Source: a virus (taxonomy: Duplodnaviria; Heunggongvirae; Uroviricota; Caudoviricetes). Taken from it: a DNA stretch of 9,540 bases. Each line of letters opens with the position of its first letter. Position 1 is the first letter of the stretch. The stretch lies in the IMG/VR virus record IMGVR_UViG_2671180651_000017, one strand, 5' to 3'. Both the position numbers and the translations under genes were made by a program. Below the pieces are notes generated by a model. It did not search any database, was not told where the DNA came from, and saw nothing but the letters and a program-made list of their open reading frames with translations. Below, in pieces: positions 1,974 through 2,511 of this stretch.

Positions 1974-2462
1974 TCAGTGTTTTAAGTCTGTTGGTGGCTT
2001 AGGGATGGGGAACCGATTTGAGTAGACACTAGCGGCATTGAGTTTTTTAACCTCTTTTTTCCCAATGCTGCCGATCTTGCGGTGGGTGAACTGGGCCAGC
2101 TTAAACGCGGCATCTAAAGCCAGTTTTGGATCTGTGTCCATGTTGTCAATCAGTATCCTGCCCATTGCTTTGATGGGGTCGGGTAGGCCGTTATCCATCA
2201 TCTCAATGGTGTTAATTGATGCCCGTTCCGGTGTAACTTTTTCGGTAACTTTCTTTGTAACTTTTTTCGGTTTTGTAACCTGAAAAGTTACATCAGAAGT
2301 TACAGCCTTAAGATACTTTTTCACCTCAGGATCGTTGGATAGCTGCCAGCCTTTAACCCTTGCGGTCTTTTCGCTGTATCCCGCATGTATAGCGGCTTCC
2401 GTGGGATTTGCGCCCCTTGATAACGCATCAGCAAACCGCTTTTTTTTGGTCGTTAATGCCAT
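1974..2462 (-). CDS. Terminase small subunit-like protein (TerS N-terminal HTH); candidate packaging-redirection protein
   Basis: Track ORF 1974..2579 trimmed to the internal ATG at 2462 (GAGG 8 nt upstream). N-terminus KRFADALSRGANPTEAAIHAGYSEKTARVKGWQLSNDPEVKKYL matches the classic TerS motif (NATQAAIRAGYSxKTA). Followed by a (K/E)KVT tandem-repeat linker and a divergent C-terminus. Confidence 0.65.
   Translation of the reverse strand: MALTTKKKRFADALSRGANPTEAAIHAGYSEKTARVKGWQLSNDPEVKKYLKAVTSDVTFQVTKPKKVTKKVTEKVTPERASINTIEMMDNGLPDPIKAMGRILIDNMDTDPKLALDAAFKLAQFTHRKIGSIGKKEVKKLNAASVYSNRFPIPKPPTDLKH
2233..2267. repeat. Tandem 12-nt repeats (AAAAGTTACA family on the minus strand) inside the terS-like coding sequence, encoding KKVT-KKVT-EKVT
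   Basis: GTAACTTTTT, GTAACTTTC, GTAACTTTTTT on the plus strand at 12-nt spacing. An inverted GTAAC/GTTAC pair follows at 2275-2291. Confidence 0.7.
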
Positions 2463-2485
2463 GCAAAAACCTCGTTTTGAGGGGG

Positions 2486-2511
2486 TGTAACTTTTCGTGT
2501 AACTTTTTTGA
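2486..2511. promoter_or_regulatory. Two direct repeats GTGTAACTTTT(C/T) upstream of the terS-like gene; same motif as the in-gene repeats; candidate TerS or activator binding site
   Basis: GTGTAACTTTTC and GTGTAACTTTTTT are adjacent, 25-50 bp upstream of the ATG at 2462. Confidence 0.4.

What the first reader, a model, noticed from the sequence alone, without database searches (positions are those of the whole stretch)
2231..2511. Same 12-nt-periodic AAAAGTTACA repeat inside the terS-like gene and in its upstream region
The terS-like gene contains three to four tandem 12-nt repeats (plus strand GTAACTTTT, 2233-2267) encoding a KKVT-KKVT-EKVT linker, followed by an inverted GTAAC/GTTAC pair (2275-2291). 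Two further copies of the same motif lie 25-50 bp upstream of the start codon (2486-2511). In many pac phages the pac site lies inside terS, and in lambda the TerS-binding R sites of cosB lie just upstream of the terS gene. The duplicated motif is therefore a candidate recognition site for this TerS-like protein or a helper TerS heterocomplex. The dual coding/binding role would explain why the repeat is kept at the DNA level.
Basis: inference. Interest (0 to 1): 0.6.

Follow-up and report, generated by a model that had tools for sequence, protein, structure and literature searches.

The report
Packaging-signal repeats around satellite terS gene
A 9-letter DNA word (AAAGTTACA) occurs eight times just upstream of and inside the small-terminase gene of a 9-kb phage satellite of E. 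coli O157:H7, and is most likely the label that this protein reads so that the satellite's DNA is packed into a helper phage's heads; related phages keep the same layout with their own word.

Summary
Eight copies of (A)AAGTTACA lie in 2232-2505: two upstream of terS and six in its linker-coding part. Six exact GTAACTTT were found against 0.39 expected.

The window is a satellite-like island of E. coli O157:H7 with int, alpA, primase plus its own GGGTAGAGG origin repeats, terS and a capsid-like gene. About 30 bp beyond the upstream copies lies a cos core (2516-2588). It is homologous to the mapped cos (CGCCCCCCCT, 3' ends) of Stx-converting lambdoid phages, which carry HNH-cos-terS-terL.

Those phages share the cos core and a 46%-identical TerS. 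At the same offset they carry a different word (GTTAAC, five copies) and have no KVT linker. Homologues 51-65% identical keep AAAGTTACA at the DNA level, upstream and in the linker, in both orientations, while synonymous sites elsewhere drift. In other lineages with the same cos core the upstream and linker words change together (AAAGTTAAAG, GGGTGTAAAC, TTGTTAATGG).

The linker is predicted to be disordered, so its KVT peptide looks like a by-product of the DNA sites. Best reading: a cosB-like array of TerS binding sites that extends into terS and gives the satellite its own packaging specificity. Binding and packaging are inferred, not shown. It is a new variant of a known kind.

The parts
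2516..2588 (-). cos core. On the gene strand it runs from a G-run to CCTGGACACCGCCCCCCGTCTCATTCGTAGAAAATTTT. It lies between the stop codon of the 53-aa ORF (2592) and the upstream repeats.
   Evidence: It aligns with the HNH-terS intergenic core of Stx phages, a Hafnia prophage and Salmonella and Citrobacter elements (A2). The record of phage Lys8385Vzw ends at ...GGACACCGCCCCCCCT and starts at CTCACGCAGAG.
2536..2545 (-). Homologue of the 10-nt 3' cohesive end. It reads CGCCCCCCGT on the gene strand, against CGCCCCCCCT in the phage.
   Evidence: PhageTerm mapping of Lys8385Vzw is reported in PMC7946995. The position here is assigned by alignment and was not mapped for this element.
2486..2505 (-). 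Two upstream copies, AAAAAGTTACAC and GAAAAGTTACAC, 12 bp apart. They lie 25-44 bp before the terS ATG and about 30-50 bp beyond the inferred cos cut.
   Evidence: They sit at the same offset from the cos core as the first GTTAAC pair of Stx phages.
1974..2462 (-). terS, 162 aa. It has an SF6/SPP1-type helix-turn-helix domain (residues 1-56), a disordered linker (57-84) and a helical core.
   Evidence: Pfam Terminase_2, E 1.4e-10. PHROG 641, E 1.5e-43. AlphaFold2 pLDDT is below 50 for residues 57-84. Foldseek top hits are the SF6 TerS DNA-binding domain, 4zc3 and 2cmp, TM 0.82-0.87 on the target.
2232..2281 (-). Four direct intragenic copies at 2232-2239, 2244-2251, 2256-2263 and 2274-2281. 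They encode (E)KVT, (K)KVT, (K)KVT and QVT.
   Evidence: The 12-nt unit varies from 1 to 3 copies among E. coli islands (L097 and L098).
2285..2304 (+). Two intragenic copies in the opposite orientation, at 2285-2292 and 2297-2304. On the gene strand they read GTAACT and encode VTF and VTS.
   Evidence: Both are conserved as GTA-ACT in 5 of the 8 homologous loci and one more keeps a single copy.
2208..2303 (-). Linker-coding segment (residues 54-85) that holds all six intragenic copies.
   Evidence: Mean pairwise codon identity in motif columns is 0.81, against 0.37 in other conserved four-fold columns, Mann-Whitney p = 1.2e-4. Protein identity to the Stx phage TerS in this segment is 7%, against 59% in the DNA-binding domain and 71% in the core.

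Best explanation
The repeats are a cosB-like array of binding sites for the helix-turn-helix domain of the island's own small terminase (TerS).

The island carries a cos cutting site of the same kind as the HNH-cos-terS-terL lambdoid (Stx-type) prophages that live in the same strains. Its TerS-site word is AAAGTTACA, whereas those phages use GTTAAC.

Proposed steps after induction, all inferred:
1. Island TerS oligomers load on the two upstream copies and the six linker copies. The copies are 12 bp apart and in two orientations, which suits several DNA-binding domains of one ring or two assemblies.
2. The TerS core, which resembles the helper's, recruits the helper's TerL and HNH to cut the adjacent cos.
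3. Island DNA is then packaged.

Because the intergenic space is short (about 75 nt from cos core to ATG), most sites sit inside terS. They occupy the part that encodes a disordered linker, so the KVT peptide repeat is a by-product of the DNA word read in frame.

Shown here: the repeats exist, cluster, lie next to a cos homologue, are conserved at synonymous sites, and co-vary with TerS lineage. Inferred: TerS binding, a role in packaging initiation, and the identity of the helper.
For: Clustering:
- Six exact GTAACTTT against 0.39 expected.
- Eight sites lie within 2232-2505.

Position:
- The sites lie just beyond a cos core homologous to the core of phage Lys8385Vzw. That phage's cos was mapped by PhageTerm as a 3' cohesive end, CGCCCCCCCT (PMC7946995).
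- The first site is at the same offset from the core in both TerS types.

DNA-level conservation across eight loci, including those 51-65% identical in protein:
- Codon identity is 0.81 in motif columns and 0.37 elsewhere, p = 1.2e-4.
- Val codons in linker VT dipeptides are 30/30 GTT or GTA, against 19/32 elsewhere.
- Reversed copies use GTA-ACT and direct copies use GTT-ACA, so the word is kept in both orientations.

Specificity split:
- Stx-type TerS (Ser39) goes with five GTTAAC and no GTTACA.
- Trp/Cys/Tyr39 TerS goes with AAAGTTACA.

Co-variation in other lineages with the same cos core. Words of 10-13 nt are shared between the upstream segment and the linker: AAAAGTTAAAGG (1/1000 shuffles), GGGTGTAAAC (1/1000) and TTTTTGTTAATGG (0/1000).

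Linkage:
- TerS is the only gene next to the motif in every context, whether phage (HNH-cos-terS-terL) or island.

Protein features:
- The N-terminal domain matches the SF6 TerS DNA-binding domain.
- The linker is predicted to be disordered.

Possible helper:
- The TerS core is 71% identical to the Stx-phage TerS core.
- The Stx-type module is in 1253 of 5426 E. coli genomes, with up to 8 copies. It shares a genome with the island in at least NZ_CP193494, NZ_CP012693 and NZ_AP027170.
Against: - There are no binding, footprint or DNA-end data for this element. The cos position rests on homology to one PhageTerm result, and the overhang differs by one base.
- Several lineages with the same cos core show no long shared word between the upstream segment and the linker (Stx-type L101, L002, L004, L111, L193 and L149). 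Intragenic copies are therefore not required in every lineage.
- The linker cluster lies 250-315 bp from the start of the core, farther than the Stx-phage sites (about 50-165 bp).
- In HK97, another HNH-cos phage, TerS reads a single 15-bp site 15-29 bp from the cut without a helix-turn-helix domain (PMC11331095). Repeated sites are not the only solution. The A-tract conserved next to the cut in every lineage examined here could itself be a terminase contact.
- The loci are related by descent, so the statistics overstate independence within a motif class.
- The helper has not been identified experimentally.
Confidence: 0.7

Rival explanations
1. The sites are mainly an operator. TerS, or TerS together with TerL, binds upstream of and inside its own gene to repress or tune its own synthesis, as reported for SPP1 gp1. 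Packaging specificity would lie elsewhere in cos.
For: The two upstream copies lie 25-44 bp before the ATG and flank the ribosome-binding region. The SPP1 pac overlaps the promoters, ribosome-binding site and 5' part of gene 1, and the SPP1 review cites a paper titled as showing that the terminase represses its own synthesis (PMC6316719). The TerS DNA-binding fold is of the same SF6/SPP1 type.
Against: No sigma-70-like promoter was found in 1900-3100. In Stx phages the equivalent sites sit 80-200 bp before the start codon, inside a late operon read through from upstream. In SPP1 the same sites serve packaging as well, so this reading complements the main one more than it competes with it.
Confidence: 0.12
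2. The word is read by another protein that travels with this packaging module. Candidates are the helper's HNH endonuclease or TerL, a host architectural protein, or the small ORF next to terS.
For: HNH and TerL act at the adjacent cos in this phage group (PMC11331095). A 49-53-aa TerS-core-like ORF follows terS in many loci.
Against: The island has no HNH or TerL, and HNH-less islands keep the word. The Hafnia prophage L084 has no gene called between terS and terL yet keeps the motif. The word changes with the TerS helix class while the cos core, the likely TerL/HNH substrate, stays the same.
Confidence: 0.08
3. There is no DNA-level function. Replication slippage of a 12-nt unit made a KVT-rich flexible linker that is selected as a peptide, and the upstream copies are chance or a duplication remnant.
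For: The number of 12-nt units varies from 1 to 3 among E. coli islands, which is typical of slippage. The linker is disordered and tolerant of change.
Against: Synonymous positions are fixed only in the motif. Reversed copies keep the word with different codons and give different peptides (VTS, VTF). The non-coding upstream copy is kept in all eight loci while its flanks diverge. Other lineages have a different word at both places, and with it a different peptide such as KLK/KVK.
Confidence: 0.04
4. The repeats are iterons of the island's replication origin, bound by the D5-type primase/helicase.
For: Short repeats with regular spacing are typical of satellite origins, and P4 has replication repeats far from its alpha gene (my own knowledge).
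Against: A separate, clear iteron field (GGGTAGAGG, about ten copies in both orientations) lies at 3435-3670, directly after the primase gene. That is where PICI origins are described (PMC6092414). The AAAGTTACA layout is also kept in a complete prophage beside HNH-terS-terL, where no origin is expected.
Confidence: 0.02

Closest known systems
Lambda cosB (R3, R2, R1 sites read by gpNu1), and the lambda versus phage 21 specificity pair
   Same: Several short TerS sites lie on the terminase-gene side of the cos cut, some inverted relative to others. Related phages share the cutting site but differ in site word and in the TerS recognition helix (R sites as summarised in PMC6739421; the lambda/21 pair is from my own knowledge).
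   Different: The TerS belongs to a different family: Terminase_2 with an SF6-type fold, not Phage_Nu1. The system is of the HNH-dependent 3'-overhang cos type. Most sites lie inside the terS reading frame, not in the intergenic region.
SPP1/SF6 pac (pacL-pacC-pacR) read by gp1/G1P
   Same: The TerS DNA-binding fold is the same. The recognition sequence overlaps the upstream region and the coding sequence of the TerS gene itself (PMC6316719).
   Different: SPP1 is a headful (pac) system whose sites flank the cut and overlap the part that encodes the DNA-binding domain. Here the system is cos-type by homology, both clusters lie on one side of the cut, and the intragenic copies lie in the linker-coding part.
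SaPI-encoded small terminase with its own pac site
   Same: A satellite encodes its own TerS homologue that is thought to work with the helper's TerL and to recognise a satellite-specific site (summarised in PMC6739421 and the cf-PICI preprint).
   Different: SaPIs with a TerS are headful packagers in Gram-positive cocci. This element is a cos-type island of E. coli that keeps the helper-type cutting site and changes only the TerS-site word.
Rpp and the altered cosB of EcCICFT073-type E. coli PICIs
   Same: Both are E. coli satellites with a helper-like cosN and a different cosB that redirects packaging to the island (PMC6739421).
   Different: Rpp is a separate protein that remodels the lambda/phi80 TerS. 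Here there is a full-length TerS homologue of another family, and a sequence search of PDB chains returned only weak hits, none named Rpp. The R elements of the Rpp system were not defined at sequence level in that paper.
HK97 small terminase site
   Same: Both are HNH-dependent cos phages with a 10-nt 3' overhang. The TerS site lies a few tens of bp downstream of the cut, next to an A-tract (PMC11331095). An A-tract is also conserved here.
   Different: HK97 TerS has no helix-turn-helix domain and reads one 15-bp site as the DNA leaves its central channel. Here an HTH-type TerS goes with 5-10 repeated words.

Membership tests
cosB-type terminase recognition array | Lies next to the cos cutting site, on the side of the terminase genes | tested here: met
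   The sites begin about 30 bp beyond the homologue of the mapped cohesive end and run into terS. The cut itself was not mapped for this island.
cosB-type terminase recognition array | Several copies of a short word, more than chance gives, with fixed positions among relatives | tested here: met
   Eight copies in 274 bp. Six exact GTAACTTT against 0.39 expected. The layout is kept in eight loci.
cosB-type terminase recognition array | The word changes together with the TerS DNA-binding domain while the cutting site stays the same | tested here: met
   Among the 14 TerS helix classes, four site words recur in both the upstream segment and the linker, and the Stx type and its relatives carry GTTAAC upstream only, all on one cos core.
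cosB-type terminase recognition array | Bound specifically by TerS | not testable with these tools
   Needs EMSA or footprinting.
cosB-type terminase recognition array | Needed for packaging initiation | not testable with these tools
   Needs transfer assays with mutated sites.
pac site of headful phages located inside terS (SPP1, P22, P1 type) | Headful packaging with imprecise ends and terminal redundancy | tested here: not met
   The nearest phage with mapped ends is cos-type with defined 3' cohesive ends. The module includes HNH, as in cos phages. The island itself is unmapped.
pac site of headful phages located inside terS (SPP1, P22, P1 type) | Recognition sequence overlaps the TerS coding sequence | tested here: met
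   Six of the eight copies lie in codons 54-78 of terS.
Phage-inducible chromosomal island / satellite with its own TerS | Integrase, AlpA-type regulator, primase-replicase with adjacent origin and flanking att repeats, with no lysis or tail genes | tested here: met
   Pfam hits. Annotation of the identical O157:H7 locus between clpS and cspD. Iterons at 3435-3670. Direct repeat at 76-148 and 9373-9445.
Phage-inducible chromosomal island / satellite with its own TerS | Induced and packaged by a helper phage | not testable with these tools
   Only co-residence with candidate helpers was seen.
Rpp (redirecting phage packaging) system | Protein homologous to RppA/B/C | tested here: not met
   A sequence search of PDB chains returned only weak hits, none named Rpp. 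The protein is a Terminase_2 / PHROG 641 TerS.
Replication-origin iterons | Repeats next to the initiator gene and specific to the replicon | tested here: not met
   A different iteron field sits next to the primase gene. The AAAGTTACA layout follows terS into prophages that have other replication genes.

The most novel reading that the evidence does not exclude
In a large group of HNH-cos phages and their satellites, which includes Stx-converting phages, there may be a simple readable code between one or two residues of the TerS recognition helix (position 39 Ser versus Trp/Cys/Tyr, and position 31) and a GTTA-N-AC-type word.

Satellites would exploit this code by a specificity swap. They keep the helper's cutting site and a helper-like TerS core, but pair a one-base-shorter word (GTTACA against GTTAACA) with a matching DNA-binding domain. 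This would divert the helper's TerL and HNH to the island and possibly poison helper TerS rings.

The TerS linker peptide would then be nothing more than the protein's own binding sites read in frame.
Probability: 0.35. Interest if true: 0.7.

Novelty: new variant of a known kind. Interest (0 to 1): 0.55.

Why it matters
TerS recognition sites are known in detail for only a handful of phages, and the way TerS reads DNA is still debated (PMC11331095).

Here one conserved cos core is paired with at least five different site words, each tied to a TerS helix class. That gives a natural set of specificity variants that can be tested directly with oligonucleotides and domain swaps.

The group includes Stx-converting prophages of EHEC and small islands that probably ride on them. 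The sites bear on how Shiga-toxin phages and their satellites are packaged and compete.

The case also shows cleanly how a DNA signal can dictate the sequence of a disordered protein linker.

Tried and rejected
- Rpp membership: rejected. A sequence search of PDB chains returned only weak hits, none named Rpp.
- Replication iterons: rejected. A separate GGGTAGAGG field lies at 3435-3670.
- Promoter or operator by consensus: no sigma-70-like site in 1900-3100.
- Structured RNA: no Rfam family reached its threshold in the window.
- The genome-contig scan with the TerS alignment returned mostly distant Terminase_2 N-terminal matches and no close family member. Only L002, L004 and L005 were useful, and only after inspection.
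- My first classification of the viral contigs used too strict a peptide pattern (AGYS.KT) and left 44 regions unclassified. A relaxed pattern fixed this.
- The shuffle test found no long shared word between the upstream segment and the linker in the Stx-type (L101), L002, L004, L111, L193 and L149 classes. The dual location is common but not universal.
- Full co-occurrence of the island and the Stx-type module across genomes could not be computed, because only 60 rows per search are listed. Three shared genomes were found by eye.

Full report
**1. The observation**

The repeat is real and far from chance.
- GTAACTTT occurs six times in the window, all between 2233 and 2506. The expectation is 0.39, and none of 200 shuffles reached six.
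- Read on the gene strand, the word is (A)AAGTTACA. It has six exact and two one-mismatch copies, all in 2232-2505.
- Eight of the window's 22 GTTAC pentamers fall within 271 bp.
- Tandem Repeats Finder gives period-12 arrays at 2233-2271 (3.2 copies) and 2485-2507 (1.9 copies).
- There are four direct intragenic copies (QVT, KKVT, KKVT, EKVT), two reversed intragenic copies (read as VTS and VTF), and two direct copies 25-44 bp before the ATG at 2462.

**2. What the window is**

The window is 100% identical to a 9.3-kb insertion between clpS and cspD in E. coli O157:H7 F8092B. The terS region tested (window 1800-3000) is 90-100% identical in 220 of 5426 complete E. coli genomes, among them O157, O121, O55:H7, O111 and O26 strains.

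On the minus strand it encodes:
- a tyrosine integrase;
- an AlpA-type regulator;
- a D5-type primase;
- several small ORFs;
- a Terminase_2 small terminase at 1974-2462;
- a 53-aa ORF;
- a capsid-like protein.

It is flanked by a direct repeat. An iteron field (GGGTAGAGG, about ten copies) lies directly after the primase gene at 3435-3670. This is the anatomy of a phage-inducible chromosomal island as described in PMC6092414.

**3. The protein**

- The N-terminal 56 residues match Terminase_2 (E 1.4e-10).
- In an AlphaFold2 model they superpose on the SF6 small-terminase DNA-binding domain (4zc3 and 2cmp; TM 0.82-0.87 on the target).
- Residues 57-84 have pLDDT below 50 and no secondary structure. 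A helical core follows.
- All six intragenic copies lie in codons 54-78, that is, in the linker.
- The protein is not an Rpp: a sequence search of PDB chains returned only weak hits, none named Rpp.

**4. A cos site next to the repeats**

Close homologues are few: 13 clusters. One of them, from Hafnia (57% identity), is the TerS of a complete prophage with the order HNH, terS, terL, protease-capsid, portal.

A tblastn search of phage records found a 46%-identical TerS in 116 records, mostly Stx1a-, Stx2c- and Stx2a-converting phages of EHEC. They have the same HNH-terS-terL order.

[quoted passage not shown] The record does end at ...GGACACCGCCCCCCCT and begin at CTCACGCAGAGAAAAAATT.

The same core is present in the window between the upstream ORF and terS. 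It consists of a G-run, then CCTGGACACCGCCCCCCGTCTCA, then an A-tract (gene strand, 2516-2588). It aligns with the cores of the Stx phage, the Hafnia prophage and the Salmonella, Citrobacter and metagenomic relatives (A2). By homology the cohesive end is at 2536-2545.

**5. Same cutting site, different word**

In the Stx phage the 230-bp stretch between the core and terS holds five GTTAAC words, out of six in 6.5 kb. It has no GTTACA, and its TerS has no KVT linker.

The first GTTAAC pair sits at the same offset from the core as the first AAAGTTACA of the window family.

In 99 distinct viral-contig regions that carry the core, TerS with Ser at position 39 went with GTTAAC (2-5 copies) and at most one GTTACA. 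TerS with Trp39 went with seven GTTACA and no GTTAAC. Position 39 lies in the predicted helix 31-42 of the helix-turn-helix.

**6. Conservation at the DNA level**

In the eight homologous loci examined, including those 51-65% identical in protein, the word is kept upstream in non-coding DNA whose flanks diverge. It is also kept in the linker in both orientations.

- Conserved four-fold-degenerate columns have a mean pairwise codon identity of 0.81 in the motif and 0.37 elsewhere (Mann-Whitney p = 1.2e-4).
- Val codons in linker VT dipeptides are GTT or GTA in 30 of 30 cases, against 19 of 32 elsewhere.
- Direct copies use GTT-ACA and reversed copies use GTA-ACT. The common factor is therefore the DNA word, not the codon or the peptide.

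**7. Co-variation in other lineages**

Among 127 regions that carry the core, the TerS helix falls into 14 sequence classes. Besides AAAGTTACA, three further words are shared between the short upstream segment and the linker-coding segment:

| Lineage | Shared word | Shuffles reaching it |
|---|---|---|
| L115 | AAAAGTTAAAGG | 1 of 1000 |
| L203 | AAAAGTTAAAG | 4 of 1000 |
| L100 | GGGTGTAAAC | 1 of 1000 |
| L104 | TTTTTGTTAATGG | 0 of 1000 |

- The linker peptide changes with the word. For example, KLK/KVK replaces KVT.
- Several classes show no long shared word (Stx type L101, L002, L004, L111, L193 and L149).
- The Stx type instead has a long intergenic region with all of its sites upstream.

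**8. Interpretation**

The only gene linked to the word in every context is terS. The word sits where TerS sites sit in lambda (PMC6739421). In SPP1, which has the same TerS fold, the recognition sequence overlaps the upstream region and the TerS gene itself (PMC6316719).

I therefore read the eight copies as a cosB-like array for the island's TerS. Where intergenic space is short, the array has spread into the one part of terS that tolerates any sequence, the linker.

The island TerS core is 71% identical to the Stx-phage TerS core. Its DNA-binding domain is 59% identical and its linker 7%. This fits a protein that reads a different word but could still engage a helper's TerL.

The Stx-type module is in 1253 of 5426 E. 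coli genomes, with up to eight copies. It shares a genome with the island in at least three of the listed strains.

Binding, the role in packaging and the helper's identity are inferences.

**9. Rivals**

- Autoregulation of terS, as in SPP1, is compatible with the main reading and may coexist with it.
- A different reader protein is unlikely, because the cos core stays constant while the word tracks TerS.
- Peptide-only selection with slippage is contradicted by the synonymous-site and co-variation results. Slippage does, however, change the copy number from 1 to 3 units.
- Origin iterons are excluded by the separate iteron field.

**10. Novelty**

I found no description of TerS sites for this phage group or of this island's packaging signal.

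The principle is established: cosB or pac words read by TerS, and satellites with altered packaging specificity. What is new:
- the family of words on one cos core;
- their placement in the linker-coding part of terS;
- a cos-type E. coli island that carries a full TerS together with its own word.

Noticed in passing
window 1801-1962 (-): The 53-aa ORF right after terS matches the TerS family profile PHROG 641 at positions 89-125 (E 3.5e-7). It also matches the core of Citrobacter-type TerS (36% identity over 33 aa), but BLASTP found no alignment with the Stx-phage TerS. It has no DNA-binding domain and ends in an acidic tail (EEEEDDL). Called ORFs of 49-53 aa occupy the same position after terS in L087, L088, L093, L094 and L098; I did not compare their sequences. 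It could be a TerS-core mimic that acts as an adaptor or as a packaging-interference protein.
   Followed up: partly
window 888-1811 (-): The 307-aa capsid-like protein aligns with residues 291-625, the mature capsid part, of the 645-aa protease-capsid fusion of Stx phage WGPS2 (24% identity, E 5e-21). This recalls the capsid homologue Ccm of SaPIbov5 (from my own knowledge), which makes small heads. A 9.3-kb genome would need small heads or multimer packaging.
   Followed up: partly
window 3435-3670: A dense field of GGGTAGAGG repeats (about ten, in both orientations) lies directly after the primase gene. It is the likely replication origin of the island.
   Followed up: partly
window 76-148 and 9373-9445: A direct repeat with the core AAATTAACTACACCATTRACTACACCGT flanks the island and is probably attL/attR. 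The island lies between clpS and cspD.
   Followed up: no
window 180-875: The gene-free stretch next to clpS holds an 88-nt repeat (223-310 and 760-847, 95% identical). It also holds two copies of the palindromic CCCGATATGGTGATCCCCATATCGGGAT (728-755 and 846-873). Its nature is unknown.
   Followed up: no
L082 5760-6000 (E. coli variant island): A second E. coli island lineage has one reversed and five direct AAAGTTACA-type copies spread over 200 bp upstream of terS, plus one phage-type TGTTAAC. Its reversed linker copies have decayed, and an HNH-like ORF lies upstream. Copy number and placement of the word evolve quickly among islands.
   Followed up: partly
window 2516-2525 and the aligned positions in all loci of A2: An A-tract (AGAAAAAAT) 8-18 nt beyond the inferred cut is conserved in every lineage examined, whatever the TerS word. 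In HK97 an A-tract next to the cut is part of the TerS site (PMC11331095). Here it may be a contact for TerL/HNH or a bending element.
   Followed up: no
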